Of a DNA stretch of 64,000 nt, positions 20,801-61,400 are shown one piece after another. Made by a program: the position numbers and the translations under genes. The stretch covers positions 41,850,001-41,914,000 of the forward strand of contig OZ024755.1 in assembly GCA_964016885.1 (NCBI GenBank), read 5' to 3'. This DNA comes from Eledone cirrhosa. Its lineage: Eukaryota. A model generated the notes under the pieces. It made no database searches. It saw only the letters and a program-made list of their open reading frames with translations, and had not been told where the DNA came from. Numbering within the stretch: the first letter of the stretch is position 1; the number at the start of each line of letters is the position of its first letter.

Positions 20801-23800
20801 AGGACCGTGTCCAGTGACCCACTGACAATTAGCACAACTTCTGTCATACTGTGGTGTCAGTAAGGTGTTTAGGACCGTGTCCAGTGACCCACTGACAATT
20901 GGCACAACTTCTGTCTTACTGTGGTGTCAGTAAGGTGTTTAGGGACCGTGTCCAGTGACCCACTGACAATTGGCACAACTTCTGTCTTACTGTGGTGTCA
21001 GTAAGGTGTTTAGGACCGTGTCCAGTGACCCACTGACAATTAGCACAACTTCTGTCATACTGTGGTGTCAGTAATGTATTTAGGGACCGTGTCCAGTGAC
21101 CCACTGACAATTGGCACAACTTCTGTCTTACTGTGGTGCAGTAAGGTGTTTAGGGACCGTGTCCAGTGACCCACTGACAATTGGCACAACTTCTGTCTTA
21201 CTGTGGTAAGGTGTTTAGGGACCGTGTCCAGTGACCCACTGACAATTGGCACAACTTCTGTCTTACTGTGGTAAGGTGTTTAGGGACCGTGTCCAGTGAC
21301 CCACTGACAATTAGCACAACTCCTGTCTTACTGTGGTGTTAGTAACGTGTTTAGGGACCGTGTCCAGTGACCCACTGACAATTAGCACAATTTCTGTCTT
21401 ACTGTGGTGTCAGTAAGGTGTTTAGGGACCGTGTCCAGTGACCCACTGACAATTAGCACAACTTCTGTCTTACTGTGGTAAGGTGTTTAGGGACCGTGTC
21501 CAGTGACCCACTGACAATTAGCACAACTTCTGTCTTACTGTGGTGTCAGTAAGGTGTTTAGGACCGTGTCCAGTGACCCACTGACAATTGGCACAACTTC
21601 TGTCTTACTGTGGTGTCAGTAAGGTGTTTAGGGACCGTGTCCAGTGACCCACTGACAATTAGCACAACTTCTGTCTTACTGTGGTGTCAGTAAGGTGTTT
21701 AGGGACCGTGTCCAGTGACCCACTGACAATTAGCACAACTCCTGTCTTACTGTGGTGTCAGTAAGGTGTTTAGGGACCGTGTCCAGTGACCCACTGACAA
21801 TTAGCACAACTTCTGTCTTACTGTGGTGTCAGTAAGGTGTTTAGGGACAGTGTCCAGTGACCCACTGACAATTAGCACAACTTCTGTCTTACTGTGGTAA
21901 GGTGTTTAGGGACCGTGTCCAGTGACCCACTGACAATTAGCACAACTCCTGGCTTACTGTGGTGTCAGTAAGGTGTTTAGGGACCGTGTCCAGTGACCCA
22001 CTGACAATTGGCACAACTTCTGTCTTACTGTGGTGTCAGTAAGGTGTTTAGGGACCGTGTCCAGTGACCCACTGACAATTAGCACAACTTCTGTCTTACT
22101 GTGGTGTCCGTAAGGTGTTTAGGACCGTGTCCAGTGACCCACTGACAATTAGCACAATTTCTGTCATACTGTGGTGTCAGTAAGGTGTTTAGGACCGTGT
22201 CCAGTGACCCACTGACAATTAGCACAACTTCTGTCATACTGTGGTGTCAGTAAGGTGTTTAGGACCGTGTCCAGTGACCCACTAACAATTAGCACAACTT
22301 CTGTCTTACTGTGGTGTCAGTAAGGTGTTTAGGACCGTGTCCAGTGACCCACTAACAATTAGCACAACTTCTGTCTTACTGTGGTGTCAGTAAGGCGTTT
22401 AGGGACCGTGTCCAGTGACCCACTGACAATTAGCACAATTTCTGTCATACTGTGGTGTCAGTAAGGTGTTTAGGACCGTGTCCAGTGACCCTTTAACAAT
22501 TAGCACAACTTCTGTCTTACTGTGGTGTCAGTAAGGTGTTTAGGACCGTGTCCAGTGACCCACTAACAATTAGCACAACTTCTGTCTTACTGTGGTGTCA
22601 GTAAGGTGTTTAGGGACCGTGTCCAGTGACCCACTGACAATTAGCACAATTTCTGTCATACTGTGGTGTCAGTAAGGTGTTTAGGACCGTGTCCAGTGAC
22701 CCACTAACAATTAGCACAACTTCTGTCTTACTGTGGTGTCAGTAAGGTGTTTAGGACCGTGTCCAGTGACCCACTAACAATTAGCACAACTTCTGTCTTA
22801 CTGTGGTGTCAGTAAGGTGTTTAGGGACCGTGTCCAGTGACCCACTGACAATTAGCACAATTTCTGTCTTACTGTGGTGTCAGTAAGGTGTTTAGGACCG
22901 TGTCCAGTGACCCACTGACAATTAGCACAACTTCTGTCTTACTGTGGTGTCAGTAAGGTGTTTAGGGACCGTGTCCAGTGACCCACTGACAATTAGCACA
23001 ATTTCTGTCTTACTGTGGTGTCAGTAAGGTGTTTAGGACCGTGTCCAGTGACCCACTGACAATTAGCACAACTTCTGTCTTACTGTGGTGTCAGTAATGT
23101 ATTTAGGGACCGTGTCCAGTGACCCACTGACAATTAGCACAACTTCTGTCTTACTGTGGTGTCAGTAAGGTGTTTAGGGACCGTGTCCAGTGACCCACTA
23201 ACAATTAGCACAACTTCTGTCTTACTGTGGTGTCAGTAAGGTGTTTAGGACCGTGTCCAGTGACCCACTGACAATTAGCACAACTTCTGTCTTACTGTGG
23301 TGTCAGTAAGGTGTTTAGGACCGTGTCCAGTGACCCACTGACAATTAGCACAACTTCTGTCTTACTGTGGTAAGGTGTTTAGGACCGTGTCCAGTGACCC
23401 ACTGACAATTGGCACAACTTCTGTCTTACTGTGGTGTCAGTAAGATGTTTAGGACCGTGTCCAGTGACCCACTGACAATTAGCACAATTTCTGTCTTACT
23501 GTGGTGTCAGTAAGGTGTTTAGGACCGTGTCCAGTGACCCACTAACAATTAGCACAACTTCTGTCTTACTGTGGTAAGGTGTTTAGGGACCGTGTCCAGT
23601 GACCCACTGACAATTGGCACAATTTCTGTCATACTGTGGTGTCAGTAAGGTGTTTAGGGACCGTGTCCAGTGACCCACTGACAATTGGCACAACTTCTGT
23701 CTTACTGTGGTAAGGTGTTTAGGGACCGTGTCCAGTGACCCACAGACAATTGGCACAATTTCTGTCATACTGTGGTGTCAGTAAGGTGTTTAGGACCGTG

Positions 23801-26800
23801 TCCAGTGACCCACTAACAATTAGCACAACTTCTGTCTTACTGTGGTGTCAGTAAGGTGTGTAGGACCGTGTCCAGTGACCCACTGACAATTAGCACAACT
23901 TCTGTCTTACTGTGGTGTCAGTAAGGTGTTTAGGACCGTGTCCAGTGACCCACTAACAATTAGCACAACTTCTGTCTTACTGTGGTGTCAGTAAGTTGTT
24001 TAGGACCGTGTCCAGTGACCCACTGACAATTAGCACAACTTCTGTCTTACTGTGGTGTCAGTAAGGTGTTTAGGACCGTGTCCAGTGACCCACTGACAAT
24101 TAGCACAACTTCTGTCTTACTGTGGTGTCAGTAAGGTGTTTAGGACCGTGTCCAGTGACCCACTGACAATTAGCACAACTTCTGTCTTACTGTGGTGTCA
24201 GTAAGGTGTTTAGGACCGTGTCCAGTGACCCACTAACAATTAGCACAACTTCTGTCTTACTGTGGTGTCAGTAAGGTGTTTAGGACCGTGTCCAGTGACC
24301 CACTGACAATTAGCACAACTTCTGTCTTACTGTGGTAAGGTGTTTAGGGACCGTGTCCAGTGACCCACTGACAATTAGCACAACTCCTGTCTTACTGTGG
24401 TGTCAGTAAGGTGTTTAGGGACCGTGTCCAGTGACCCACTGACAATTAGCACAACTTCTGTCATACTGTGGTGTCAGTAAGGTGTTTAGGGACCGTGTCC
24501 AGTGACCCACTGACAATTAGCACAACTTCTGTCTTACTGTGGTGTCAGTAAGGTGTTTAGGACCGTGTCCAGTGACCCACTGACAATTGGAACAACTTCT
24601 GTCTTACTGTGGTAAGGTGTTTAGGGACCGTGTCCAGTGACCCACTGACAATTAGCACAACTTCTGTCATAATGTGGTGTCAGTAAGGTGTTTAGGGACC
24701 GTGTCCAGTGACCCACTGACAATTGGCACAACTTCTGTCTTACTGTGGTGTCAGTAATGTATTTAGGGACCGTGTCCAGTGACCCACTGACAATTAGCAC
24801 AACTTCTGTCTTACTGTGGTGTCAGTAAGGTGTTTAGGACCGTGTCCAGTGACCCACTGACAATTCGCACAACTTCTGTCTTACTGTGGTAAGGTGTTTA
24901 GGGACCGTGTCCAGTGACCCACTGACAATTAGCACAACTTCTGTCATACTGTGGTGTCAGTAAGGTGTTTAGGGACCGTGTCCAGTGACCCACTGACAAT
25001 TAGCACAACTTCTGTCTTACTGTGGTGTCAGTAAGGTGTTTAGGACCGTGTCCAGTGACCCACTGACAATTAGCACAACTTCTGTCTTACTGTGGTGTCA
25101 GTAAGGTGTTTAGGACCGTGTCCAGTGACCCACTGACAATTGGCACAACTTCTGTCTTACTGTGGTGTCAGTAAGGTGTTTAGGACCGTGTCCAGTGACC
25201 CACTAACAATTAGCACAACTTCTGTCTTACTGTGGTGTCAGTAAGGTGTTTAGGACCGTGTCCAGTGACCCACTAACAATTAGCACAACTTCTGTCTTAC
25301 TGTGGTGTCAGTAAGGTGTTTAGGACCGTGTCCAGTGACCCACTGACAATTAGCACAACTTCTGTCTTACTGTGGTGTCAGTAAGGTGTTTAGGACCGTG
25401 TCCAGTGACCCACTGACAATTAGCACAACTTCTGTCTTACTGTGGTAAGGTGTTTAGGGACCGTGTCCAGTGACCCACTGACAATTAGCACAACTTCTGT
25501 CTTACTGTGGTGTCAGTAAGGTGTTTAGGACCGTGTCCAGTGACCCACTGACAATTAGCACAACTTCTGTCTTACTGTGGTGTCAGTAAGGTGTTTAGGA
25601 CCGTGTCCAGTGACCCACTGACAATTGGCACAACTTCTGTCTTACTGTGGTGTCAGTAAGGTGTTTAGGACCGTGTCCAGTGACCCACTAACAATTAGCA
25701 CAACTTCTGTCTTACTGTGGTGTCAGTAAGGTGTTTAGGACCGTGTCCAGTGACCCACTGACAATTAGCACAACTTCTGTCTTACTGTGGTGTCAGTAAG
25801 GTGTTTAGGACCGTGTCCAGTGACCCACTGACAATTGGCACAACTTCTGTCTTACTGTGGTGTCAGTAAGGTGTTTAGGACCGTGTCCAGTGACCCACTA
25901 ACAATTAGCACAACTTCTGTCTTACTGTGGTGTCAGTAAGGTGTTTAGGACCGTGTTCAGTGACCCACTGACAATTAGCACAACTTCTGTCTTACTGTGG
26001 TGTCAGTAAGGTGTTTAGGACCGTGTCCAGTGACCCACTGACAATTGGCACAACTTCTGTCAGTATGTGGTAAGGTGTTTAGGGACCGTGTCCAGTGACC
26101 CACTGACAATTGGCACAATTTCTGTCTTACTGTGGTTTCAGTAAGGTGTTTAGGGACCGTGTCCAGTGACCCACTGACAATTGGCACAACTTCTGTCTTA
26201 CTGGGGTAAGGTGTTTAGGGACCGTGTCCAGTGACCCACTGACAATTGGCACAACTTCTGTCTTACTGTGGTGTCAGTAAGGTGTTTAGGACCGTGTCCA
26301 GTGACCCACTGACAATTAGCACAACTTCTGTCTTACTGTGGTGTCAGTAAGGTGTTTAGGACCGTGTCCAGTGACCCACTGACAATTGGCACAACTTCTG
26401 TCAGTATGTGGTAAGGTGTTTAGGGACCGTGTCCAGTGACCCACTGACAATTGGCACAACTTCTGTCTTACTGTGGTGTCAGTAAGGTGTTTAGGGACCG
26501 TGTCCAGTGACCTACTGACAATTGGCACAACTTCTGTCTTACTGTGGTAAGGTGTTTAGGGACCGTGTCCAGTGACCCACTGACAATTGGCACAACTTCT
26601 GTCTTACTGTGGTGTCAGTAAGGTGTTTAGGACCGTGTCCAGTGACCCACTGACAATTAGCACAACTTCTGTCTTACTGTGGTGTCAGTAAGGTGTTTAG
26701 GACCGTGTCCAGTGACCCACTGACAATTGGCACAACTTCTGTCAGTATGTGGTAAGGTGTTTAGGGACCGTGTCCAGTGACCCACTGACAATTGGCACAA

Positions 26801-27010
26801 CTTCTGTCTTACTGTGGTGTCAGTAAGGTGTTTAGGACCGTGTCCAGTGACCCACTGACAATTAGCACAACTTCTGTCTTACTGTGGTAAGGTGTTTAGG
26901 ACCGTGTCCAGTGACCCACTGACAATTAGCACAACTTCTGTCAGTATGTGGTGCTCAATTCTCATAGCACATACGAGGTCTGCATATTTATTAATCCTTT
27001 CCATTTCCTT
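8871..27010 (-). mobile_element. Third RLE-LINE 3' fragment in the opposite orientation, split by the satellite that expanded from inside it
   Basis: The minus strand from ~27009 reads MPEKEMERINKYADLVCAMRIEHHILTEVVLIVSGSLDTV, matching the RLE K..KY.DL...VP.V.G.LG region. The left flank continues PKHLTTFIKSL and, in another frame, TSGILCDIWRI*, then a short UTR. Confidence 0.7.
9032..26952. repeat. ~18 kb tandem satellite, unit 64/65/70/71 bp (aaggtgtttag(g)gaccgtgtccagtgacccactgacaatt(g/a)gcacaacttctgtcttactgtggt(gtcagt)), roughly 260 copies
   Basis: Period read directly (9041 to 9111 = 70 bp). Variants differ by a 6-bp indel (gtcagt), gg versus ggg, and aattgg versus aattag. Copy number estimated from length. 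Confidence 0.98.
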
Positions 27011-28276: not shown

Positions 28277-29148
28277 ATTAAATTTGAACAACAACCAATT
28301 ATTACACTACATCCAACACAACACCAGCATCACAGAAAAAGACTACATAACATCCCAAAATTCACACCACCTCCACACATACAAATCACTCGCATCACAC
28401 AGAAAACGTACACGACACTAAAATTAAAATTCCCCATGGACAACGGAAACTTCCGACAAACACTCTCCAGGAGGATTTATAAGGACAACATTCCGGAGGA
28501 GGCCACAGGAGGCAGTGAGAAGGATGGAGAAACCGTCCTTCCTCTACGAGAAGTAAGGTAAGTGGTCTTTCCCATCTTTTTCCACTCCTTTTGAACATGA
28601 CCTCACTCAGAATAAGCAGCATAAATGCGCATGGCCTGAGGTCGTCATGGAAGCAGGGCCATCTGCTCAACGACCTCAGGTCACTAAACCTAGATGTGGT
28701 CGCCATCAGCGAGACCAGAATCTCCTTCGTACTGATCTTCGGCGGCTATCATGTGTACGCATCTCCCAGCCGTCCTGGATCGGGGGGAGGAGTTGCTGTG
28801 CTTTTTCGGAGAGGTTTGGATCTCGCCAAGCGGGCCATCTTCCTGGACCCAGAAGGTAAGTTGGTGGTGCTGGACGTGACCAGCGGAGACGGGCAAGCTT
28901 TCAGGCTAGAGGCTTTAGCAATATAGAAAAATAGAGCAGAGGGAGAACTAGTTAGAAAATTAGACGAGGCGCTTAGTAAAGGCATCGCGACTGACGTACT
29001 TGCGGCGAAATTGGCCCTTGACCAATTCTTCAATGCAAAGCACCAAGGCTGACCTAGGGTGCGTGCTCTCAGACACTAGGGGACGAAAGCCGTTCAATGG
29101 GCCCGAGTCGCGGAGGCGCGTCGTGGCAACAAAGCCACGATCCGGTCT

Positions 29149-31428
29149 TTGGTGGACCACGACGGGCACATGCTACTCGATCCCGGGAAAATGTGTGAAG
29201 TTTTTCAGCGACACTTCGCTCAGCTGTTCGGGGGCAGCGGCGGGCCGGATCAAGGGATGGACTTTAGTGCCTACCTCGACGGACTGCCGCGGCTCTCGGC
29301 CACTGAGGCGGAGTGTTGCGAAAAGCCGATAACAGCCGCTGAAGTACGAGAGCCAATGACTGGCTGCACAAGGGGTAAATCGCCTGGCTTGGATGGTCTG
29401 CCCTATGAACTTTACGTACAGATGCCAGACTTCTTCAGAGGCTTCTTGGCGGACGTCTACTGCAACTGGAAACAGAACGGGAGAATTTCCAGCTCTGTGA
29501 GCCGAGAAGCGGTGGCACTGCTGAGAAAGGATCCGAACAAGGGGGATAATATAGATGATTTCAGGCCCATAACTCTGCTAAACACAGAGTTTAAGATTTT
29601 GGCCAAGGTGCCAGCAAAGAGGTTGGCGCTTGTCGTTGGTGGTCTGGTGGGAGAGGCGCAGACATGCGCCATTCCAGATAGATCCATCCACGACAACCTC
29701 CACCTCATGCGATACATCGTAGAGAGGGTAGCTAGGGAACCTGGCACGAGTGGGTCCTTGATCAACTTAGATCCGTCGAAAGCTTTCGATAGGGTCGACC
29801 ATCGTTACCTAGCGGCAAACCTGAGGGCGGCTGGCTTTGGGCCCGTCTTCAGAGGCTGGATCGCTGCCATGCACAGCGACATCTGCTCTGTGGTGAGAGT
29901 GAACGGTCACCTTTCGGAACCGTTCAACATAATGCGCTCGGTCTCCCAAGGATATCCCCTCTCGTCCCTCTTGTACGTATTGACTCTCGAGCCATTACTG
30001 CACAAACTGGAGACGTTGAGGGGGATCCCGCGCGAACTAGGATGCGGAAGATCCGTGTCCGCATATGCCGACGATGTCACCGTAGTGGTGTCGAACGCCA
30101 AATACATCGAGGCGATCGGCACTACACTAAGAGAATACGAAGCGGTGACAGGAGCAATGATCAACCAGGAAAAGTCAGTGGACCTGCAGCTCGGCACCTG
30201 GAGAGGCAGGTCCATGCCGTCCAACAGCGTCGTCGGGCGCTGGACGGACGGACCGGTTAAATTGCTAGGGGTCTGGTTCGGTCCGGACCTCCAGACGGAC
30301 AAAAACTGGGACGAGGTGACGAGCAGGGTGGCTTCTCTCACCCAGAAATGGGCGGAGAGGAAGCTATCCCTGAAAGGTCGAGCGGAGGTGGATAGCGCAT
30401 ACATCGCGTCCGTCGTCTACTACCGCCTGACCGTCGTACCTTGTCCTAAGCCTCACCTGACTGCGCTGGAGCGTTTGCTCTTTCGCTTTTTGTGGAAGGG
30501 ACGCGCTCCAATGGTCAAGCGGTCCATCTGCTGTCAACACCCTCTACGTGGAGGGCTGGGCATGCCGTGACTGATGATGCGCAGACACGCGCTCAGGCTA
30601 CGACATCTCCACCTCTTCCTCAACGGTGATCAGGTGTGGTTGCCGTTTGCTAGACGGGTCTTTCCCCAGCTCGTCTCCTTGACGGAGCTGCAGTCCTGGG
30701 TCAAGCGAAGACCGAGAGGGTGCGCTTGGAGACTGGAATGTTTTCAGGCGCTCACAGCCCTCGACCAGTCGGGCAATGTGATCGGTGGAAACTCCACCTT
30801 GGCGTTCTATAGAGGATTAGTGGAGGGGAAGAGCGACGACGTACTTGGAGAAACTCTAGGCGTCGACGAAAATCAACTAGCCAATATCTTCGGAAGAACT
30901 TTCGGGCCGGGGCCTATGGACAATTTCCAGAAATCCCTGGCCTGGCAGTGCTACCGAGGAGCTTTGCCAGTTCGGGATAAACTCTACAGGCATGGAGGTG
31001 CCGTCAGCCTGGCATGTCCGAGATGCACGCAGGGCGACGAAACCGTCCTGTACGCACTCGTCCAGTGTCCGAGCATTGCTGACTTCTGGGTTTATGTCGA
31101 ACACCTGCTGTCGCGTATAGGACGGATCCAGCTATCAGCTGAGTCCATCGTGAGGATTGCCCCGCCCTCTTCCTTTAGCCGGGAAGGGCAGGCAGTTTTT
31201 ATCTCTCTGGTGGCCATGGCGAAAGAGATAGTATGGTGGACACGTTTGAAAGGGCTGAAGACGAGCACTCACCTCTTCAGTGATGCCTTGATTAACTTTT
31301 TCAAATTTTATTTGAAAAGGAAAATCAGGGTAGAGAGGGAAGTGCTCTCTTCCCAGCATTTTGTTGAAAGATGGGTGAGAGAGGCAAGAATGGCCCGAGT
31401 GAACTTTGAGTATGTGTCTGTAAATTAA
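29149..31428 (+). pseudogene. Tx1-type LINE ORF2 reverse transcriptase, interrupted by a TGA at 30568-30570
   Basis: Two ORFs in the same frame separated by a single stop; canonical RT motifs. Confidence 0.88.
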
Positions 31429-35431: not shown

Positions 35432-35564
35432 CTTACTGAACCCCCACAAGACATGGGTCTTTGTGGGTTGTAAAATGTTCGTAGACAAAACACTGATTGG
35501 TTGTTTATCGGTTCCAAATATCGATAAGCCATAGATCTCATCAAATATGACATGGAGGTCAAAA
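35432..35564 (-). CDS. ACCS: ACCS-like exon 3: (S)FDLHVIFDEIYGLSIFGTDKQPISVLSTNILQPTKTHVLWGFSK
   Basis: ttgtAG acceptor, 133 nt (phase 2 to 0), GTaag donor; carries the DEIY motif and the PLP-binding Lys (GFSK). Confidence 0.95.
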
Positions 35565-38317: not shown

Positions 38318-38960
38318 TGAGGAAACGACTCTAACCGTGACTAACCCAACTGAAAAGTTTCGTGAAATAGTCTTTTTAAGACTATATAGTGCATTTGTAG
38401 ATTTTTCCAAATTGACGGAGAAGTATTTACTCTTAATTTTATTTTGAGTTAAGACTCTTTTGGTTTTTCCCCGGATTACACAAAATCTGTGGATAAAATT
38501 TCTGGTCTTGACTTGTTTTGAATTGGGATTAAATTATTTTCCCATATCTTACGTTAAATATTTTTCATCTTGACGTAATAGTCACTTATATGTCTGAATT
38601 ACTGTTGGCTTCTTGCTTACATTAATTTCTCTATTTTCATTTATATATTTATACTCGGAATTTAATAATCAAAACTATGTTCAAATCATTTTATTGCTGA
38701 CAATCGTTTCTTCCAAACTTTCGTTTGGAATCCTCGGAGCACTAGCAAGGTTTGGACATATAATTAACTTCCTATTCAACTGAACAATCATATAGATACA
38801 TGGATATTAATGTTATCATCAACAGCTTCGTATTTACAGAGTGGAATGGATGTGACAGAGATTACAAGAAAATTGTATAATAATTAAAGCGGCGCAGAGT
38901 GGAATGCATGTGACAGAGATTACAAGAGAATAGTATAATAATTAAAGCAGTATAGATAAT

Positions 38961-39141
38961 TGTTTCTACTTTTGGCACAAGGCCAGCAATTACCCAGTGC
39001 ATTACTGGTACTTTATTTTATCGACCCCGTAAGGATGAAAGGCAAAGTCAACCTCGGCGGGATTTGAACTCTGATCATAAAGGGACGTAACTATGCTGGA
39101 AAGCATGGCGTCCGACCCTCTACCGATACTGCCAACCCACC
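38961..39141 (-). mobile_element. tRNA-SINE, apparently full length, with a 14-bp TSD GCAGTATAGATAAT
   Basis: TSD copies at 38947-38960 and 39142-39155; A-box-like tggcagtatcgg and B-box gagttcaaatccc on the minus strand. Confidence 0.9.
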
Positions 39142-39440
39142 GCAGTATAGATAATGCAAATGCGTTAGGCATATACAGGACAGTTAGGTAGGAAAACTGT
39201 CCTGTATATGCCTAACGCATTTGCACTGTCTATACTGCTTTAATTATTATACTATTCTCTTGTAATCTCTGTTACATGCATTCCACTCTGCGCCTCTTTA
39301 ATTATTATACAATTTTCTTGTAATCTCTGTCACATCCATTCCACTCTGTAAATACGAAACTGTTGATGACAACATTAATATCCATGTATCTATATGATTA
39401 TTCAGTTGAATAGGAAGTTAATTATATGTCCAAGCCTTGC

Positions 39441-39493
39441 TAGTGCTCCGAGGATTCCAAACGAAAGTTTGGAAGAAACGATTGTCAGCAATA
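39441..39493 (+). ncRNA. Hammerhead-like motif (U4C variant), mirrored on the minus strand at 38692-38744
   Basis: tgct-CCGAGGA-ttccaaac gaaa gtttggaa-GAAAC gatt GTC-agca: perfect 8-bp stem II, minimal helix III, GUC cleavage triplet. Confidence 0.65.
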
Positions 39494-39551
39494 AAATGAT
39501 TTGAACATAGTTTTGATTATTGTGTAATTTATATATATATATATATATACA

Positions 39552-40336
39552 CAATTAAGTTTAAAAATGTACATCTACATATGTATACTGAAATACTAGT
39601 ATGCATATGAATACACACACGTATACATATGTAGATGTACCAAGTTTTTTCACTGGTCACTTTACTGTGAGTGTCCAGCTATTCTGTATGTAAACACACA
39701 GACAAACCGGTTTTTAGAGTCATACTGGTTTTTGAGGAAACACCTTTCCTCTATTCTCCAGAAAGCCAGACAAGGAATATTGAACTAGTTTCGTTGTTGT
39801 TACAACTCATCAGCAATATTTACCTATCTCCCGGCCTTTCTGGAGAATCGTAAAAGCACATATCGTTATATGCTTTTTCTATGAAAATTAGTAGTGGGCA
39901 GACTAATTTGCATAGAGTGTGAGTACGTACCGGTTCAACGGAGACGATAAAAACAAATAACGAAACGAAATTAAATTTCGTTTCGTTTGTAACTCACTTT
40001 TGTTTGACTGACGCTTAAACAATTAAGTTAAAAAATGTACATCCACATATGTATACTGAAATACTAGTATGCATATGAATACACACACGTATACATATGT
40101 AGATGTACCAAGTTTTTTCACTGGTCACTTTACTGTGAGTGTCCAGCTATTCTGTATGTAAACACACAGACAAACCGGTTTTTAGAGTCATACTGGTTTT
40201 TGAGGAAACACCTTTCCTCTATTCTCCAGAAAGCCAGACCATATGTAGATGTACATTTTTTAACTTAATTGTTTAAGCGTCAGTCATACAAAAGTGAGTT
40301 ACAAACGAAACGAAATTTAATTTCGTTTCGTTATTT

Positions 40337-40340
<4 letters not shown>
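39552..40340. repeat. Compound direct and inverted duplication: ~220-bp direct repeat (39552-39770 / 40019-40238) and ~100-bp inverted repeat (39951-40051 / 40240-40340)
   Basis: Direct sequence comparison. Confidence 0.85.
39776..39820 (-). ncRNA. Minimal type-I hammerhead ribozyme, intact core
   Basis: Minus strand aatattg-CTGATGA-gttgt aaca acaac-GAAA-c ta g-TT-caatatt: 7-bp stem I, 5-bp stem II closed by G-C, palindromic ACTAGT helix III, GUU cleavage triplet. Confidence 0.85.
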
Positions 40341-40401
<61 letters not shown>

Positions 40402-42753: not shown

Positions 42754-42854
42754 CTTTTGGCAAATTGTAAAATAATTTCAATTTCATTGTTGGGCAGCAA
42801 CCGTCCAGTTGGGTTGTTGGGGTTGATAACTATTATACCCTTAATTGTGTAACC
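42754..42854 (-). CDS. ACCS: ACCS-like exon 2: GYTIKGIIVINPNNPTGRLLPNNEIEIILQFAK
   Basis: cttcAG acceptor, 101 nt (phase 0 to 2), GTaag donor; carries the aminotransferase class I NPxNPTG motif. Confidence 0.95.
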
Positions 42855-43009
42855 CTGAAGTTTAAAGTGATTGAAAATAGATTATTAACGATAAATATTG
42901 TATTATTTCGTGCAATTGATTTTATGAACGAATCTAAATTGAAACAAATCTTACCTTAAACATCTCATATATGCTGTGCTCTTGTATAAATATCTATTTA
43001 ATTAATTAG

Positions 43010-45290: not shown

Positions 45291-48200
45291 CTAGACCACC
45301 CGTGACCCGTTGGGTCATGTTCACTTAAAAATAATTTTTAAATAATTAAAATATACACAAAATGTATATTATGTAAAATGACATTGGAAAGCCAATATAT
45401 ATATACGTGTATGTGTGTGTGTGTATGTACGTGTATATATATATGTGTGTTTGTGTGTGTGAGTGTCTGTGGCCTATATACACTGGTCCAAGTGTAAAAC
45501 TTTGACACATCGGCATAATACAATGTTTTTGCAAACGGATCGCGATCGCAAAGATCCATGAACTCAGTCGGAGTCGTCTTAGCCATGTTATTGTTTACTT
45601 TAACAGCAGCATTGACCCGAAAGAAGATTTGATTTTCCTCAGGTAGATGAACTTGAAGGCGAACTACGGCCGGTTCTCTCTCATGAATTGGAAATCCAAG
45701 TACCAAGGCAACAGCTTCTGAAGGACCGATATATCTTCCTGTTAAATACTGTATTATCTCATCTTCCCTGTTCACTCCAAACATTGCCTGATCACTGCCC
45801 TTCATGATGTATTTGATAACGTATTTGATCGATTTCATAGAAGAGCACATCTCTGCGTTTAGGTGGCAGTTGAACAGTTTTAATAGTTTCATATTGTAGG
45901 GAACCACCCATTCCGAAGTTATATTTCAGCTTCCCCTTCCTTCTTGGTGTCCCTCAAATACTCCCATTCCTGGAGACCATCTTCTCTACACAAGGTAAGA
46001 GTCCTCTCCACACAATGTATATTCACTGAAAGGCTTAAGGTACCGCTTACTGCACGTTCCATCTTTCCAACACGGCGAATTGTTAGAGCAATTCGGACCG
46101 TGGATCATGTGCTTCAGCACCAATTCATGGCCCTCTGGATCTTTGTTTGGATCTGGTATTTCGGCTTGAACAAATTTACCATATTCCTGCAGTCTGGGCT
46201 TGGAGGCTTCTTTGAGCCATAGCAAACAGTTCACATGAGGAAGACCTCGCTTTTGACATTCGACTGTCAGCACGTAAGCAATGCACGTGCCAAATAGGCG
46301 ATCTACTCCAGTAAGATACTTTCTTAACAGTTTCCGCTTCAGGTCAAATACTCAGTCAATTATATCTGGCCTGTCATGTGGCTTCTGATTCAGGAATAGG
46401 TTTTGCCGGATTTCGGGCCAGTTTGGATTGCATGTCATTGTGATGAAGAACGAAGGATTGCCGTACTTCCGTATGTACACCATGGCATCCTAGCATCGCT
46501 CCATCATATATCTCGGTCCACCGACAAATGTGGAAGAGAGTATGATTCGCCTGCCAATATTGCAAAAATCGTCATCATCATTCAATGCGTCAGTAAGGCC
46601 CTTGTATGTTGTAGATCGCAATGATGTTTGATTCATTCGGATGTATTGCAGTCTATCTCCTTCAATCTTCGCAGCCATGTCAACCAAATATTGCTGAAAT
46701 AAACGATCGCCTCTGAGAAGTTGGTTGAATTTATTCTCATGGTTCATTATTCGATAGGCATAGTAGCGCATTGGCGTGAACTACTTGTTGTTGCTCTTTA
46801 ACAGCTCATGATGCCATCCGTCATCGCCAAAAGGAAAAAATAGAACATACTGCAAACTGTCATAAGACCGATGGGACTGAGATTATTTGCAATTGTCCGC
46901 CTTTTTCTTTTAACACTATGTGCCGTGTTTTTGCTTGAAGTTCGGTGCTGTTTTGTATAATAACGGCAACTTCGTTTGCAGTTTGTGCATTGAATCTTCT
47001 CTCATGTTCCATTGCTGGTCTCCTATCAGGATCAATAATAATCGAAGCTTCAGGAATATTTTTAATTTGTTCTTTTGCCATTCGAAATGAAGCAACGTAG
47101 GGTTATATTGTCTGAGTATTATTTCCAATAATTCAACTATGTCGCAATGAATGCCATCGTTATGGAGTATCCTGATCCTCAAATCAACACTATCCTGAGG
47201 ATCTTAAAAGTAAATTTGAAGAAATTGCGGTTGTTCGTTGGGATTAGGGGTTAAGGAACTGATGTAATGGTGAATTTGACCATGAATAACGATAGAAGGA
47301 TTCCATCCACTCCTTGAGGAACGAACTTCTTCGGCCCCAAAAGATGTCATTTGGAACAGGCAGTTATATTGTCTGAGGTTCTTCCTGAACTCGTTTGCCC
47401 TAGGTTGATCAGTACTAAATAAACTGTGAAGTTCCTGGGGTAAAGGCTGCAGATTCCCAACCTGACTTTTCCATTCATACAGCAAAAGTTAGCAGTTTCA
47501 CCATGAAAAAGCATTGCATGACAACAGACACAGATCTTATTCATCTGTCCAACATCAGCAGAGAGGTCACGTCGTTGAACTGTCCTTGCTCTATCCCTAA
47601 TGGTTTGTTGGCAAAGACGTTCAGTTCTCCGAGCGTCCGATTCATGATTTCTCGTGCTTCTGTCTCTTTCCCTTTGTTCCGCCAGATGCTCAGCTCTCCG
47701 ACCATCCGATGCATGATCTCTCCTGCTTCTGTCTCTTTCCCTCTGTTCCGCCAGACGCTCAGCCCTTGCTTTATCAGTCTCATCGATCCTTCTATTCGCA
47801 TGCCTGTCCCGAGCTTGTTGGCGTTGACCACTTTCTTGCTCACCATCTTCGGCTCTTCTTAGCCGTGCTTTCTTTCCACTATCGATAGACCAACCAGATG
47901 TTTTCTTTCTTCCTCGTCGAGGCATTATTTAAGAATAGAAAATCGTATTCACCTTAGAAAAAATTCCTATTACCTCAACAAATATTTTTTTTAAATCATC
48001 ATTTAGAAATATTTCTAAATAATGAAAATATTGTCTGTTTAAACAACTCGTATTTTTCAAATCATATTCACTTAAAAAATACTTATTAATAATTAAAATA
48101 TTCTGTTTAAAGAAAGCTGAAATATATATACTCAATGTACAAATAATTTGTATTTTTTAAGTCATTTTCACTTAAGAATATTTTTTAAATATGCCAAGAA

Positions 48201-49461: not shown

Positions 49462-49517
49462 ACTGCTATATATATTTCGATGATAGCCATTGAATGGCTA
49501 TGACCTCATCAGGCAGT
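49462..49517 (-). ncRNA. Minimal type-I hammerhead ribozyme, intact core
   Basis: Minus strand actgc-CTGATGA-ggt c atagccat tca atggctat c atc-GAAA-t atat a-TA-gcagt: 5-bp stem I, long stem II closed by G-C, 2-bp helix III with a palindromic loop, AUA cleavage triplet. Confidence 0.82.
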
Positions 49518-52444: not shown

Positions 52445-55400
52445 TACAACAGTCAATCTGACAGGTGTAATACACCTTACAGCAGTCTGACAGGTGTAAT
52501 ATACCTTACAAGAATCTGACAGGTGTAATATACCTTACAACAGTCTGACAGGTGTAATATATCGTATAACAGACTGACAGGTGTAATATATCTTACAACA
52601 GTCAATATCACAGGTGTAATGTATCTTACAACAGTCTGACAAGTGTAATATACCTTACAACAGTCTGACAGGTGTAATATATCTTACAACAGTCAATATC
52701 ACAGGTTTAATATATTTTACAACAGTCTGACAGGTGTAATATATCTTACAACAGTCTGACAGGTGTAATATACCTTACAACAGTCTGACAGGTGTAATAT
52801 ATCTTAGAACAGTCTGACAGGTTTAATATACCTTACAACAGTCTGACAGGTGTAATATACCTTACAACAGTCTGACAGGTGTAATATAACTTACAACAGT
52901 CTGACAGGTGTCATATACCTTACAACAGTCTGAGAGGTGTAATATACCTTACAACAGTCTGACAGGTGTCATATACCTTACAACAGTCTGACAGGTGTAA
53001 TATACCTTACAACAGTCTGACAGGTGTAATATACCTTACAACAGTCTGACAGGTGTAATATACCTTACAACATTCTGACAGGTGTAAAATACCTTACAAC
53101 AGTCTGACAGGTGTAATATACCTTACAACATTCTGACAGGTGTAAAATACCTTACAACAGTCTGACAGGTGTAATATACCTTACAACAGTCTGACAGGTG
53201 TAATATACCTTACAACAGTCTGACAGGTGTAATATACCTTACAGCAGTCTGACAGGTTTAATATACCTTACAACAGTCTGACAGGTGTAATATATCTTAC
53301 AACAGTCTGACAGGTGTAATATACCTTACAACAGTCTGACAGGTGTAATATACCTTACAACAGTCTGACAGGTGTAATATATCTTACAACAGTCTGACAG
53401 GTGTAATATACCTTACAACAGTCTGACAGGTGTAATATACCTTACAACAGTCTGACAGGTGTAATATATCTTACAACAGTCTGACAGGTGTAATATACCT
53501 TACAACAGTCTGACAGGTGTAATATACCTTACAACAGTCTGACAGGTGTAATATATCTTACAACAGTCTGACAGGTGTAATATACCTTACAACAGTCTGA
53601 CAGGTGTAATATACCTTACAACAGTCTGACAGGTGTAATATATCTTACAACAGTCTGACAGGTGTAATATACCTTACAACAGTCTGACAGGTGTAATATA
53701 CCTTACAACAGTCTGACAGGTGTAATATATCTTACAACAGTCTGACAGGTGTAATATACCTTACAACAGTCTGACAGGTGTAATATACCTTACAACAGTC
53801 TGACAGGTGTAATATATCTTACAACAGTCTGACAGGTGTAATATACCTTACAACAGTCTGACAGGTGTAATATACCTTACAACAGTCTGACAGGTGTAAT
53901 ATACCTTACAACAGTCTGACAGGTGTAATATACCTTACAGCAGTCTGACAGGTGTAATATACCTTACAGCAGTCTGACAGGTGTAATATACCTTACAACA
54001 GTCTGACAGGTGTAATATACCTTACAACAGTCTGACAGGTGTCAGATACCTTACAACAGTCTGACAGGTGTAATATACCTTACAACAGTCTGACAGGTGT
54101 AATATATCTTACAACAGTCTGACAGCTGTAATATACCTTACAACAGTCTGACAGGTGTAATATACCTTACAACAGTCTGACAGGTGTAATATACCTTACA
54201 ACAGTCTGACAGGTGTAATATATCTTACAACAGTCTGACAGGTGTAATATATCTTACAACAGTCTGACAGGTGTAATATACCTTACAACAGTCTGACAGG
54301 TGTAATATACCTTACAACAGTCTGACAGGTGTAATATAACTTACAACAGTCTGACAGGTGTAATATACCTTACACCAGTCTGACAGGTGTAATATAGCTT
54401 ACAGCAGTCTGACAGGTGTAATATACCTTACAACAGTCTGACAGGTGTAGTATACCTTACAACAGTCTGACAGGTGTAATATACCTTACAACAGTCTGAC
54501 AGGTGTAATATACCTTACAACAGTCTGACAGGTGTAATATACCTTACACCAGTCTGACAGGTGTAGTATACCTTACAACAGTCTGACAGGTGTCATATAC
54601 CTTACAACAGTCTGACAGGTGTAATATATCTTACAACAGTCTGACAGGTGTAATATACCTTACAACAGTCTGACAGATGTAATATATCTTACAACAGTCT
54701 GAGAGGTGTAATATACCTTACAACAGTCTGACAGGTGTAATATATCTTACAACAGTCTGACAGGTGTAATATACCTTACAACAGTCTGACAGGTGTAATA
54801 TACCTTACAACAGTCTGACAGGTGTAATATATCTTACAACAGTCTGACAGGTGTAATATACCTTACACCAGTCTGACAGGTGTAATATACCTTACAGCAG
54901 TCTGACAGGTGTAATATACCTTACAACAGTCTGACAGGTGTAATATACCTTACAACAGTCTGAGAGGTGTAATATACCTTACAACAGTCTGACAGGTGTA
55001 ATATACCTTACAGCAGTCTGACAGGTGTAATATACCTTACAACAGTCTGACAGGTGTAATATACCTTACAACAGTCTGACAGGTGTAATATATCTTACAA
55101 CAGTCTGACAGGTGTCATATACCTTACAGCAGTCTGACAGGTGTAATATACCTTACAGCAGTCTGACAGGTGTAATATACCTTACAACAGTCTGACAGGT
55201 GTAATATACCTTACAACAGTCTGAGAGGTGTAATATACCTTACAACAGTCTGACAGGTGTAATATACCTTACAGCAGTCTGACAGGTGTCATATACCTTA
55301 CAACAGTCTGAGAGGTGTAATATAACTTACAACAGTCTGACAGGTGTCATATACCTTACAACAGTCTGAGAGGTGTAATATACCTTACAACAGTCTGAGA

Positions 55401-58400
55401 GGTGTAATATATCTTACAACAGTCTGACAGGTGTAATATACCTTACAACAGTCTGACAGGTGTAATATATCTTACAACAGTCTGACAGGTGTCATATACC
55501 TTACAGCAGTCTGACAGGTGTAATATATCTTACAACAGTCAATATCACAGGTTTAATATATCTTACAACAGTCTGACAGGTGTAATATATCTTAGAACAG
55601 TCTGACAGGTGTAATATACCTTACAACAGTCTGACAGGTGTAATATACCTTACAACAGTCTGACAGGTGTAATATACCTTACAACAGTCTGACAGGTGTA
55701 ATATACCTTACAACAGTCTGACAGGTGTAATATATCTTACAACAGTCTGACAGGTGTAATATACCTTACAACAGTCTGACAGGTGTCATATACCTTACAA
55801 CAGTCTGACAGGTGTCAGATACCTTACAACAGTCTGAGAGGTGTAATATACCTTACAACAGTCTGACAGGTGTAATATATCTTACAACAGTCTGACAGGT
55901 GTAATATACCTTACAACAGTCTGACAGGTGTCATATACCTTACAACAGTCTGAGAGGTGTAATATACCTTACAACAGTCTGACAGGTGTAATATACCTTA
56001 CAACAGTCTGAGAGGTGTAATATACCTTACAACAGTCTGACAGGTGTAATATACCTTACAACAGTCTGAGAGGTGTAATATACCTTACAACAGTCTGACA
56101 GGTGTCATATACCTTACAACAGTCTGACAGGTGTAATATACCTTACAACAGTCTGACAGGTGTCATATACCTTACAGCAGTCTGACAGGTGTAATATACC
56201 TTACAACAGTCTGACAGGTGTAATATACCTTACAACAGTCTGACAGGTGTAATATATCTTACAACAGTCTGAGAGGTGTAATATACCTTACAGCAGTCTG
56301 ACAGGTGTAATATACCTTACAACAGTCTGACAGGTGTAATATACCTTACAACAGTCTGACAGGTGTAATATATCTTACAACAGTCTGACAGGTGTAATAT
56401 ATCTTACAACAGTCTGAGAGGTGTAATATACCTTACAACAGTCTGACAGGTGTAATATATCTTACAACAGTCTGACAGGTGTAATATACCTTACAACAGT
56501 CTGAGAGGTGTAATATACCTTACAACAGTCTGACAGGTGTAATATACCTTACAACAGTCTGAGAGGTGTAATATACCTTACAACAGTCTGACAGGTGTAG
56601 TATATCTTACAACAGTCTGAGAGGTGTAATATACCTTACAGCAGTCTGAGAGGTGTAATATACCTTACAACAGTCTGACAGGTGTAATATACCTTACAAC
56701 AGTCTGAGAGGTGTAATATACCTTACAACAGTCTGACAGGTGTAATATACCTTACAGCAGTCTGAGAGGTGTAATATACCTTACAACAGTCTGAGAGGTG
56801 TAATATACCTTACAACAGTCTGAGAGGTGTAATATACCTTACAACAGTCTGACAGGTGTAATATACCTTACAACAGTCTGACAGGTGTAATATACCTTAC
56901 AACAGTCTGACAGGTGTAATATACCTTACAACAGTCTGACAGGTGTAATATATCTTACAACAGTCTGACAGGTGTAATATACCTTACAACAGTCTGACAG
57001 GTGTAATATATCTTACAACAGTCTGACAGGTGTCATATACCTTACAACAGTCTGACAGGTGTAATATACCTTACAACAGTCTGACAGGTGTCATATACCT
57101 TACAACAGTCTGACAGGTGTAATATACCTTACAACAGTCTGACAGGTGTAATATACCTTACAGCAGTCTGACAGGTGTAATATACCTTACAACAGTCTGA
57201 CAGGTGTAATATATCTTACAACAGTCTGACAGGTGTCATATACCTTAGAACAGTCTGACAGGTGTAATATATCTTACAACAGTCTGACAGGTGTCATATA
57301 CCTTAGAACAGTCTGACAGGTGTCATATACCTTAGAACAGTCTGACAGGTGTAATATACCTTAGAACAGTCTGACAGGTGTCATATACCTTAGAACAGTC
57401 TGACAGGTGTAATATACCTTAGAACAGTCTGACAGGTGTCATATACCTTAGAACAGTCTGACAGGTGTCAAATACCTTAGAACACTCTGACAGGTGTCAT
57501 ATACCTTAGAACAGTCTGACAGGTGTCATATACCTTAGAACAGTCTGACAGGTGTAATATACCTTACAGCAGTCTGACAGGTGTAATATACCTTACAACA
57601 GTCTGACAGGTGTCATATACCTTACAACAGTCTGACAGGTGTAACATACCTTACAACAGTCTGACAGGTGTCATATATCTTACAACAGTCTGACAGGTGT
57701 AATATACCTTACAACAGTCTGACAGGTGTAATATACCTTACAACAGTCTGACAGGTGTAATATACCTTACAGCAGTCTGAGAGGTGTAATATACCTTACA
57801 ACAGTCTGACAGGTGTCATATACCTTACAACAGTCTGACAGGTGTAATATACCTTACAACAGTCTGACAGGTGTAATATACCTTACAACAGTCTGACAGG
57901 TGTAATATACCTTACAGCAGTCTGAGAGGTGTAATATACCTTACAACAGTCTGACAGGTGTAATATACCTTACAACAGTCTGACAGGTGTAATATACCTT
58001 ACAGCAGTCTGAGAGGTGTAATATACCTTACAACAGTCTGACAGGTGTAATATACCTTACAACAGTCTGACAGGTGTCATATACCTTACAACAGTCTGAC
58101 AGGTGTAATATACCTTACAATAGTCTGACAGGTGTAATATATCTTACAACAGCCTGACAGGTGTCATATACCTTACAACAGTCTGACAGGTGTAATATAC
58201 CTTACAGCAGTCTGACAGGTGTAATATACCTTACAACAGTCTGACAGGTGTAATATATCTTACAACAGTCTGACAGGTGTCATATATCTTACAACAGTCT
58301 GACAGGTGTAATATACCTTACAACAGTCTGACAGGTGTCATATATCTTACAACAGTCTGACAGGTGTAATATACCTTACAACAGTCTGAGAGGTGTAATA

Positions 58401-61400
58401 TACCTTACAACAGTCTGCCAGGTGTAATATACATTACAACAGTCTGACAGGTGTAATATACCTTACAACAGTCTGACAGGTGTAGTATACCTTACAGCAG
58501 TCTGACAGGTGTAATATACCTTACAACAGTCTGACAGGTGTCATATACCTTACAACAGTCTGACAGGTGTAATATACCTTACAACAGTCTGACAGGTGTA
58601 ATATACCTTACAACAGTCTGAGAGGTGTAATATACCTTACAACAGTCTGACAGGTGTAATATACCTTACAACAGTCTGACAGGTGTAATATACCTTACAA
58701 CAGTCTGACAGGTGTAATATATCTTACAACAGTCTGACAGGTGTAATATACCTTACAACAGTCTGACAGGTGTAATATACCTTACAACAGTCTGACAGGT
58801 GTAATATACCTTACAACAGTCTGAGAGGTGTAATATACCTTACAACAGTCTGACAGGTGTAATATACCTTACAACAGTCTGACAGGTGTAATATACCTTA
58901 CAACAGTCTGACAGGTGTAATATACCTTACAACAGTCTGACAGGTGTAATATACCTTACAACAGTCTGACAGGTGTCATATACCTTACAACAGTCTGACA
59001 GGTATAGTATATCTTACAACAGTCTGACAGGTGTAATATACCTTACAACAGTCTGAGAGGTGTAATATACCTTACAACAGTCTGACAGGTGTAATATACT
59101 TTACAACAGTCTGACAGGTGTAATATACCTTACAACAGTCTGACAGGTGTAATATACCTTACAACAGTCTGACAGGTGTAATATATCTTACAACAGTCTG
59201 ACAGTTGTAATATACCTTACAGCAGTCTGACAGGTGTAATATACCTTACAACAGTCTGACAGGTGTCATATACCTTACAACAGTCTGACAGGTGTAATAT
59301 ACCTTACAAAAGTCTGACAGGTGTAATATATCTTACAACAGTCTGACAGGTGTCAGATAACTTACAACAGTCTGACAGGTGTAATATACCTTACAGCAGT
59401 CTGACAGGAGTAATATACCTTACAACAGTCTGACAGGTGTAATATACCTTACAACAGTCTGACAGGTGTCATATACCTTACAACAGTCTGACAGGTGTAA
59501 TATATCTTACAACAGTCTGACAGGTGTAATATATCTTACAACAGTCTGACAGGTGTAATATACCTTACAACAGTCTGAGAGGTGTAATATACCTTACAAC
59601 AGTCTGACAGGTGTAATATACCTTACAACAGTCTGACAGGTGTAATATACCTTACAACAGTCTGAGAGGTGTAATATACCTTACAACAGTCTGACAGGTG
59701 TAATATACCTTACAACAGTCTGACAGGTGTAATATACCTTACAACAGTCTGACAGGTGTAATATATCTTACAACAGTCTGACAGGTGTAATATACCTTAC
59801 AACAGTCTGACAGGTGTAATATACCTTACAACAGTCTGACAGGTGTAATATACCTTACAACACTCTGAGAGGTGTAATATACCTTACAACAGTCTGACAG
59901 GTGTAATATACCTTACAACAGTCTGACAGGTGTAATATACCTTACAACAGTCTGACAGGTGTAATATACCTTACAACAGTCTGACAGGTGTAATATACCT
60001 TACAACAGTCTGACAGGTGTCATATACCTTACAACAGTCTGACAGGTGTAGTATATCTTACAACAGTCTGACAGGTGTAATACCTTACAACAGTCTGAGA
60101 GGTGTAATATACCTTACAACAGTCTGACAGGTGTAATATACTTTACAACAGTCTGACAGGTGTAATATACCTTACAACAGTCTGACAGGTGTAATATACC
60201 TTACAACAGTCTGACAGGTGTAATATACCTTACAACAGTCTGACAGGTGTAATATACCTTACAACAGTCTGACAGGTGTAATATATCTTACAACAGTCTG
60301 ACAGGTGTAATATACCTTACAACAGTCTGACAGGTGTAATATATCTTACAACAGTCTGACAGGTGTCATATACCTTACAACAGTCTGACAGGTGTAATAT
60401 ACCTTACAACAGTCTGACAGGTGTCATATACCTTACAACAGTCTGACAGGTGTAATATACCTTACAACAGTCTGACAGGTGTAATATACCTTACAGCAGT
60501 CTGACAGGTGTAATATACCTTACAACAGTCTGACAGGTGTAATATATCTTACAACAGTCTGACAGGTGTCATATACCTTAGAACAGTCTGACAGGTGTAA
60601 TATATCTTACAACAGTCTGACAGGTGTCATATACCTTAGAACAGTCTGACAGGTGTCATATACCTTAGAACAGTCTGACAGGTGTAATATACCTTAGAAC
60701 AGTCTGACAGGTGTCATATACCTTAGAACAGTCTGACAGGTGTAATATACCTTAGAACAGTCTGACAGGTGTCATATACCTTAGAACAGTCTGACAGGTG
60801 TCAAATACCTTAGAACACTCTGACAGGTGTCATATACCTTAGAACAGTCTGACAGGTGTCATATACCTTAGAACAGTCTGACAGGTGTAATATACCTTAC
60901 AGCAGTCTGACAGGTGTAATATACCTTACAACAGTCTGACAGGTGTAATATACCTTACAACAGTCTGAGAGGTGTAATATACCTTACAACAGTCTGACAG
61001 GTGTAATATACCTTACAACAGTCTGACAGGTGTCATATATCTTACAACAGTCTGACAGGTGTAATATACCTTACAACAGTCTGACAGGTGTAATATACCT
61101 TACAACAGTCTGACAGGTGTAATATACCTTACAGCAGTCTGAGAGGTGTAATATACCTTAGAACACTCTGACAGGTGTCATATACCTTAGAACAGTCTGA
61201 CAGGTGTCATATACCTTAGAACAGTCTGACAGGTGTAATATACCTTACAGCAGTCTGACAGGTGTAATATACCTTACAACAGTCTGACAGGTGTAATATA
61301 CCTTACAACAGTCTGAGAGGTGTAATATACCTTACAACAGTCTGACAGGTGTAATATACCTTACAGCAGTCTGAGAGGTGTAATATACCTTACAACAGTC

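What the first reader, a model, noticed from the sequence alone, without database searches (positions are those of the whole stretch)
39776..39820. Intact 45-nt minimal hammerhead on the sense strand of the ACCS pre-mRNA
All conserved core nucleotides are present (CUGAUGA, G-C closing pair, GAAA, GUU). Helix III is the palindrome ACUAGU with only a 2-nt loop. By analogy with newt and PLE hammerheads, it should cleave efficiently only as a dimer. It would be transcribed as part of the intron between exons 2 and 3, so it could cut the intron co-transcriptionally (inference).
Basis: partly seen in the sequence, partly recalled or inferred. Interest (0 to 1): 0.75.

Follow-up and report, generated by a model that had tools for sequence, protein, structure and literature searches.

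The report
Lone retrozyme hammerhead in octopod intron
This is an intact self-cutting RNA motif (hammerhead) belonging to a 467-base repeat with over 6,000 near-identical units in the genome; the repeat is likely spread by Penelope-type jumping-gene enzymes, and this lone copy in an intron is predicted to cut the host RNA poorly.

Summary
The hammerhead is real: minus strand, 39820-39776, same strand as an ACC-synthase-like gene, predicted cut between 39783 and 39782. It is not a solitary gene element. It is one unit of a 464-468-bp non-coding tandem repeat with 6,113 matching cores genome-wide, a non-LTR retrozyme. Helix II covaries: 5,142 copies have U-A, 967 have A-U, 4 are mismatched. A sister family covaries in helices I and II and keeps the loops, so this is a canonical type I motif, not a minimal one. 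Insertions carry Penelope marks: (TA)n targets, two fixed 3' ends, and an inverted arm; 31 of 34 two-armed insertions use one end of each kind. The window copy (39548-40344) holds one hammerhead only, so it has no partner in cis. Folding energies favour a dimer, which predicts weak cleavage here. The intron follows the eighth matched coding exon, not exon 2. Two other sense-strand hammerhead-like motifs lie in other introns of this gene. No RNA data were available. The scan already noted such retrozyme families in this genome (e1-8803865 probably this one). Verdict: new member of a known kind; a host role is unlikely.

The parts
39776..39820 (-). Type I hammerhead core: helix I (6 bp plus a terminal A-U), CUGAUGA, helix II (4 bp, 6-nt loop), GAAA, palindromic helix III; predicted cut 39783/39782
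   Evidence: Sequence, folds, Rfam HH9 37 bits, E 1.6e-07
39753..39848 (-). Extended stem carrying the hammerhead, with the conserved helix I internal loop (GGUA / UCC)
   Evidence: Fold z -5.37; loop invariant and flanking pairs covarying between two families
39548..40015 (-). One full 468-bp retrozyme unit; its 3' end (site A, about 39548-39553) abuts a TA run
   Evidence: Direct repeat spacing 468; 94-99% identical tandem units elsewhere
40016..40239 (-). Partial upstream unit, 5'-truncated 11 nt downstream of the position of its cut site; no hammerhead
   Evidence: 224-nt repeat, 99% identical; unit position 245 against cut site 234
40240..40344 (+). Inverted short arm ending at the second fixed 3' end (site B, unit position about 69), followed by (TA)n
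   Evidence: 105-nt inverted repeat, 97%; end classes
40340..40401 (.). (TA)n target microsatellite on the right; a shorter TA run at about 39538-39549 on the left
42754..42863 (-). Host ACC-synthase-like coding exon upstream of the intron (8th matched exon)
   Evidence: tblastn to P0001, 83%; Pfam Aminotran_1_2, E 1e-05; GT donor
35432..35564 (-). Host coding exon downstream of the intron (9th matched exon)
   Evidence: tblastn to P0001, 87%; homolog search; AG acceptor

Best explanation
The motif is the hammerhead of a young, non-coding 464-468-bp tandem repeat (a non-LTR retrozyme) with more than 6,000 units in this genome; a 1.5-unit copy with one hammerhead was likely inserted by a Penelope-type enzyme into a (TA)n run of the host intron, where it is predicted to cut only weakly. 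Shown: repeat membership, copy number, covariation, tandem and two-armed layout, two fixed 3' ends, TA targets, a single hammerhead here. Inferred cycle: arrays are transcribed; neighbouring hammerheads pair their ACUAGU palindromes and swap helix I strands, which cuts out unit-length RNA; monomers or multimers may be circularised by a host ligase; a Penelope-type RT/GIY-YIG protein nicks both strands of a TA run and primes one cDNA at site A and the other at site B; the two cDNAs join head to head. The ribozyme is likely kept by selection on the element, not on the host gene.
For: 5,096 exact 37-nt cores, control 0; 6,113 cores with the helix II pair free: 5,142 U-A, 967 A-U, 4 mismatched. 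Tandem arrays with up to 32 hammerheads in the stretches fetched. 83 of 86 arm 3' ends in 52 insertions fall at site A or B; 31 of 34 two-armed insertions have one of each, none has two alike; TA runs follow these ends. This is the layout described for Penelope-like elements (partial tandem, inverted 5'-truncated copy, tail on one end, microsatellite bias; 10.1101/2021.04.23.441226, passages) and matches two adjacent internal RT start sites (PMC11167929, parts 1-2 of 4). Of 51 positions where 2 or more of 44 loci deviate, 3 lie in the 45-nt motif, all keep pairing, none is in the 13 core bases. Sister family: 9 of 20 pairs change on both sides, 94.3% of cells paired. Dimer favoured in cis and in trans (-73.6 against -74.8 resting and -56.8 for two active monomers). 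The axolotl motif with the same helix III build cut 6% in an hour as a monomer and much more as a dimer (PMC7229834 section 15). In one two-armed insertion all 17 full units are identical and share a private A>G cluster (L067/L068), as repeated copying of one template would give.
Against: Neither cleavage nor transcription was shown. No autonomous element sharing the unit's sequence was found; one Penelope-like family was tested (33 loci). Counting all alleles, the motif is no more conserved than the rest of the unit (16 per 45 nt against 146 per 418). Covariation rests on few events: one subfamily swap and one split between two families; pairs-with-change was matched by 106 of 500 shuffles. 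The energies omit tertiary contacts, and newt monomers do cleave when helix I has its internally looped extension (PMC6155905 section 6), which this motif has. Identical units could also come from DNA-level homogenisation; several arrays are heterogeneous or show period-2/3 variants, and the window's two partial copies differ at a site that varies in the family, so a monomer circle was not the template everywhere. Only 1 of 9 predicted Xenopus retrozyme dimers cleaved in vitro (10.64898/2026.07.22.740005 part 3).
Confidence: 0.82

Rival explanations
1. The lone copy is a competent monomer thanks to loop 1-loop 2 contacts, and it cuts a real fraction of host pre-mRNA before the 7.2-kb intron is spliced, lowering or altering the host transcript.
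For: Sense orientation, intact core, helices I and II form in context (pair probabilities 0.88-0.99 for the inner pairs); conserved loops; newt monomers cleave with an extended helix I (PMC6155905 section 6); 4.2 kb of intron remain downstream.
Against: In the model the core CUG pairs with the helix III UAG (0.92, 0.92, 0.72) and the 15.1-16.1 pair has probability 0.0; active monomer costs +7.6 kcal/mol; the closest tested analogue gave 6% per hour; the gene already carries two other sense-strand motifs and has 12 intact matched exons.
Confidence: 0.12
2. The motif is a domesticated intronic ribozyme serving the host gene, like the amniote RECK/HH9 ribozymes.
For: Best Rfam match is HH9; such domestication from retroelements is described (PMC6155905 passages).
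Against: The copy is 94-99% identical to thousands of dispersed units over its whole length and keeps fresh insertion junctions, so it is recent; HH9 score is below gathering.
Confidence: 0.03
3. The repeat spreads as DNA (satellite, MITE-like or Helitron-like), and the hammerhead is a relic of an ancestral pseudo-LTR.
For: Outer inverted ends in TA runs resemble a MITE; some arrays are perfectly homogeneous; no RNA evidence was obtained.
Against: The two outer ends are different fixed sites, not one terminal inverted repeat; inner junctions vary freely; a compensatory helix II swap spread to 967 copies with only 4 intermediates.
Confidence: 0.05

Closest known systems
Metazoan non-LTR retrozymes (coral, mussel, axolotl, newt satellite 2; PMC7229834; vertebrate survey 10.64898/2026.07.22.740005)
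   Same: Non-coding low-GC tandem unit (35% GC) with one canonical type I hammerhead per unit, thousands of copies, many lone copies, intronic copies common (42-44% of Xenopus copies overlap introns).
   Different: Unit of 464-468 bp, just above the 150-450 bp quoted in PMC7229834; helix III is of the weak amphibian kind although the host is an invertebrate; insertions are two-armed with two fixed 3' ends, which the parts of those papers read here do not describe; RNA not shown.
Axolotl HHR_Amex1 / newt satellite 2 hammerhead (PMC7229834 section 15; PMC6155905 section 6)
   Same: Six-base palindromic helix III (one pair plus tetraloop), looped extension of helix I, predicted dimer gain.
   Different: Different sequence family; activity not measured here.
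Penelope-like element pseudo-LTRs and min-HHRs (PMC4209133, PMC11167929, 10.1101/2021.04.23.441226)
   Same: Partial tandem, inverted 5'-truncated arm, tail on one end only, AT-rich or microsatellite targets, type I hammerhead.
   Different: No RT-endonuclease ORF; hammerhead has canonical helix sizes and conserved loops; distance between the two ends about 70 nt against a 30-40 bp tail.
Amniote intronic hammerheads (Rfam HH9, RECK; PMC6155905)
   Same: Type I architecture, sense-strand intronic position.
   Different: Those are conserved at fixed loci; this is a recent copy of a high-copy mobile repeat.

Membership tests
Canonical metazoan type I hammerhead | Conserved core (CUGANGA, GAA, A15.1-U16.1, H17) | tested here: met
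   Sequence; HH9 alignment
Canonical metazoan type I hammerhead | Helix I 6 bp, helix II 4 bp, helix III 1-2 bp with small palindromic loop (definition in PMC4209133 part 1) | tested here: met
   Folds; pair counts; 5,142 / 967 / 4 helix II counts
Canonical metazoan type I hammerhead | Conserved loop 1 and loop 2 bases that make tertiary contacts | tested here: inconclusive
   Loop bases stay constant between two families while stems change (9 rows); the contact itself cannot be computed here
Canonical metazoan type I hammerhead | Site-specific self-cleavage | not testable with these tools
   No assay; no raw RNA reads offered
Rfam hammerhead families | Score at or above the gathering threshold | tested here: not met
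   0 matches at gathering; HH9 37 of 52 bits
PLE min-HHR | No helix III or tertiary loops; longer helix II, shorter helix I (PMC4209133 part 1; PMC6155905 passage) | tested here: not met
   Helix II 4 bp, helix I 6 bp, looped extension present
Non-LTR retrozyme | Short tandem repeats with a type I hammerhead in each unit | tested here: met
   Arrays at 464-468 bp spacing; 31 of 52 insertions hold 2 or more hammerheads
Non-LTR retrozyme | Non-coding, GC below 50% | tested here: met
   35% GC; frames of at most 66 aa within the unit; no ORF joined to the arrays in 21 loci
Non-LTR retrozyme | 'Active' copy: two consecutive units with complete hammerheads (10.64898/2026.07.22.740005) | tested here: not met
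   This insertion has one hammerhead; the family has many that qualify
Non-LTR retrozyme | Expressed as unit-length linear and circular RNA | not testable with these tools
   Only contig runs of unknown kind were listed
Penelope-mobilised element | Partial tandem plus inverted 5'-truncated arm, tail on one end, microsatellite target | tested here: met
   31 of 34 two-armed insertions with one A and one B end; TA flanks
Penelope-mobilised element | Homology to the pseudo-LTR of an autonomous element in the same genome | tested here: inconclusive
   One young Penelope-like family tested: only short TA-rich matches next to its ORF; 150 of 48,250 candidates were scored
Domesticated intronic hammerhead (RECK/HH9 type) | Conserved at the orthologous intron across species | not testable with these tools
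   No related genomes are held

The most novel reading that the evidence does not exclude
Lone intronic copies like this one are silent alone but are switched on in trans: abundant retrozyme RNA pairs with them through the ACUAGU palindrome and helix I swap and cuts host pre-mRNAs, so one small RNA family could tune splicing of many octopod genes. The trans dimer fold is about as stable as the resting state in the model, and 21 of 52 sampled insertions carry a single hammerhead.
Probability: 0.07. Interest if true: 0.75.

Novelty: new member of a known kind. Interest (0 to 1): 0.3.

Why it matters
For this locus, little: a recent mobile-element copy in an intron. For the family, it adds genomic evidence that animal retrozymes are copied by Penelope-type enzymes (two fixed priming sites, one per DNA strand), a link that PMC7229834 and the 2026 preprint propose from co-occurrence and homology. 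It also defines an exact template (sites A and B) for an in vitro test. Three searches (retrozyme/hammerhead/octopus, any 2 terms, 20 of 97 listed; cephalopod + hammerhead ribozyme; octopus + Penelope + ribozyme) listed no paper describing a cephalopod retrozyme; supplements were not read and subscription journals are not covered. This scan has reported the same kind of family in this genome many times.

Tried and rejected
Expression: no RNA holder listed among 6 runs; contigs cannot show ends or strand; no evidence either way. Presence of this insertion in another sample: no listed contig of X1-X3 (one sample) or X5 bridges the junction 40239/40240; a hole proves nothing. Cut-RNA signature: 9 of 75 usable 5' truncation points fall 1-26 nt downstream of the cut site, against 0 in the 38 nt before and 1 in the 40 nt after (binomial p 4e-05 in a window partly chosen afterwards; 11 of 86 points dropped: 10 query-edge artefacts, 1 fetch edge). 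But other 26-nt bins hold 7-8 points and RT stalling in the same stem would look alike, so it is suggestive only. Editing scars: A>G at 34 sites against T>C at 22 on the sense strand, no excess among singletons (12 against 11); weak. Autonomous partner: none found in one Penelope-like family; its GIY-YIG Pfam match is weak (E 0.092) and its 'Neptune-like' label is recalled, not tested. Partner in cis: the other two sense-strand motifs in the gene have different helix I strands, so they should not form the swapped dimer. Plus-strand reading of the 45-mer: no ribozyme. Rfam miRNA and sRNA matches near the motif are far below gathering. An internal promoter was not tested. The original newt monomer paper was not held; a review's account was used.

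Full report
Observation. Rfam gives no match at gathering score in the window but Hammerhead_HH9 is the best match locally, 37 bits against 52, E 1.6e-07. The 45-mer alone is not unusually stable (z -1.58); the 101-nt stem that carries it is (z -5.37, 0 of 200 shuffles).

Host gene. Minus-strand exons match an octopus protein named ACC synthase by its source (P0001, 86% over 83% of one exon, 1 hit among 3 candidates) and Pfam Aminotran_1_2. Twelve exons map over the window and the 50 kb beyond it. The hammerhead is in the 7.2-kb intron 42753-35565 (GT..AG), after the eighth matched exon, 2.9 kb from the donor. 'Exons 2 and 3' is wrong even by counting inside the window.

What it belongs to. 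The motif sits in a 468-bp direct repeat with a 105-bp inverted arm, between TA runs. A genome search returned 42 matches, 41 at 99-100% identity, many at 464-468 bp spacing. Exact counts: 5,096 copies of a 37-nt core, control 0; 7,755 with helix II left free. The unit is 35% GC and non-coding. This fits the non-LTR retrozymes of PMC7229834 (passages, section 15 and part 4 of 6 read) and 10.64898/2026.07.22.740005 (parts 1-3 of 5 read).

Covariation. At the second pair of helix II, 5,142 copies have U-A, 967 have A-U and 4 of 6,113 are mismatched. This is one swap spread by a subfamily, not many events. Among 172 full units from 44 loci, 51 positions deviate in 2 or more loci; 3 are in the motif and all keep pairing; none is in the core. 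Counting all alleles the motif is no more conserved than the rest (16/45 against 146/418), as expected if most are mutations after insertion. A sister family (one tandem pair 434 bp apart), about 70-75% alike in patches, shares the core, the ACUAGU palindrome, loop 2 and the helix I internal loop while its stems differ: 9 of 20 pairs change on both sides, 94.3% of cells pair, slid controls 30-50% (9 rows, in effect two families; its helix II closing pair is a mismatch). By the definition in PMC4209133 (part 1 of 4) this is a canonical type I motif, not a min-HHR.

How it moves. I analysed 52 insertions: 20 best hits, the first exact matches along contig C1, a few subfamily loci and the window. 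83 of 86 arm 3' ends fall at two fixed sites about 70 nt apart; 31 of 34 two-armed insertions have one of each and none has two alike; the inner junctions vary; TA runs follow the fixed ends. Penelope-like elements show this layout (10.1101/2021.04.23.441226, passages), and the anole element starts reverse transcription at two adjacent internal sites on both target strands (PMC11167929, parts 1-2 of 4). A young 927-aa Penelope-like ORF exists in the genome and its copies also end at two sites in TA runs, but it shares no real sequence with the unit, so the driver is not identified. Template: in L067/L068 all 17 full units of both arms are identical with a private A>G cluster; other arrays show period-2 or period-3 variants; the window's two partial copies differ at a family-variable site. 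Circles of one or several units, or linear multimers, all remain possible. The window's main arm stops 11 nt downstream of the cut-site position; 9 of 75 truncation points do likewise, which is suggestive only.

Would it cut the host RNA? This insertion has one hammerhead, as do 21 of 52 sampled. In the folding model helices I and II form, but the core CUG pairs with helix III and the 15.1-16.1 pair has probability 0.0. The active monomer costs +7.6 kcal/mol; a real tandem dimer costs +3.4 against +15.2 for two monomers; a trans dimer is -73.6 against -74.8 resting (concentration and tertiary contacts ignored). The axolotl motif with the same helix III cut 6% in an hour alone. Against this, newt monomers cleave when helix I is extended by an internal loop (PMC6155905 section 6), as here. 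Two more sense-strand hammerhead-like motifs lie in other introns of the gene, from other repeat families, with non-matching helix I. Weak cutting that the host tolerates is the likeliest state. No RNA data were available.

Novelty and score. A new member of a known kind. Three literature searches listed no cephalopod retrozyme paper (supplements unread). The scan's earlier notes report such families in this genome; a look-up by sequence found none. I had the repeat, the fixed ends and the two-armed layout before reading those notes; the editing and one-template tests followed their lead. Interest 0.3; the trans-activation reading has probability 0.07.

Noticed in passing
window 49462-49517 (-): Second hammerhead-like motif on the sense strand, in the intron before: helix I 5 bp, long helix II, palindromic AT helix III; a degenerate relative occurs in L122, so it is another repeat family.
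   Followed up: partly
L074 about 4865-4965 (-), window-equivalent 98925: Third sense-strand hammerhead in an upstream intron of the same gene, from the sister family.
   Followed up: partly
L076-L085: Sister retrozyme family with the same palindrome and loops, a mismatched helix II base and more diverged copies (about 88-95% alike); probably older.
   Followed up: partly
L063, L069, L086, L087; G000:C1:81847174-81879052: Arrays whose variants repeat every 2-3 units or irregularly, hinting at multimeric templates; in L069/L070 the period-3 A/G pattern is on one arm only.
   Followed up: partly
L120 2980-5763 (-); L090-L119: Young Penelope-like family with an open 927-aa frame, about 100 copies identical over the endonuclease region among 150 scored, inverted flanks and two 3' ends in (TA)n; no hammerhead found near it by my descriptor.
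   Followed up: partly
L040 about 3480-4560 (-): A different tandem unit of about 640 bp with a hammerhead-like core and a palindromic helix III, also ending in (TA)n, beside an array of this family.
   Followed up: no
window 38664-39521: 293-bp perfect-like inverted repeat arms (98%) around a common dispersed repeat, next to the retrozyme; MITE-like.
   Followed up: no
window 28519-31428 (+): LINE-like retrotransposon (RT domain, E 5e-26) antisense in the last mapped intron of the host gene.
   Followed up: no
window 45338-47928 (-): Broken ORF pieces that look like a Helitron Rep/helicase (recalled motifs; Pfam gave no clear match for the one piece tested).
   Followed up: no
window 9032-26942 and 52457-64000: Large satellites: 71-bp unit (261 copies) downstream of the gene and 29-bp unit (398 copies) inside an upstream intron.
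   Followed up: no
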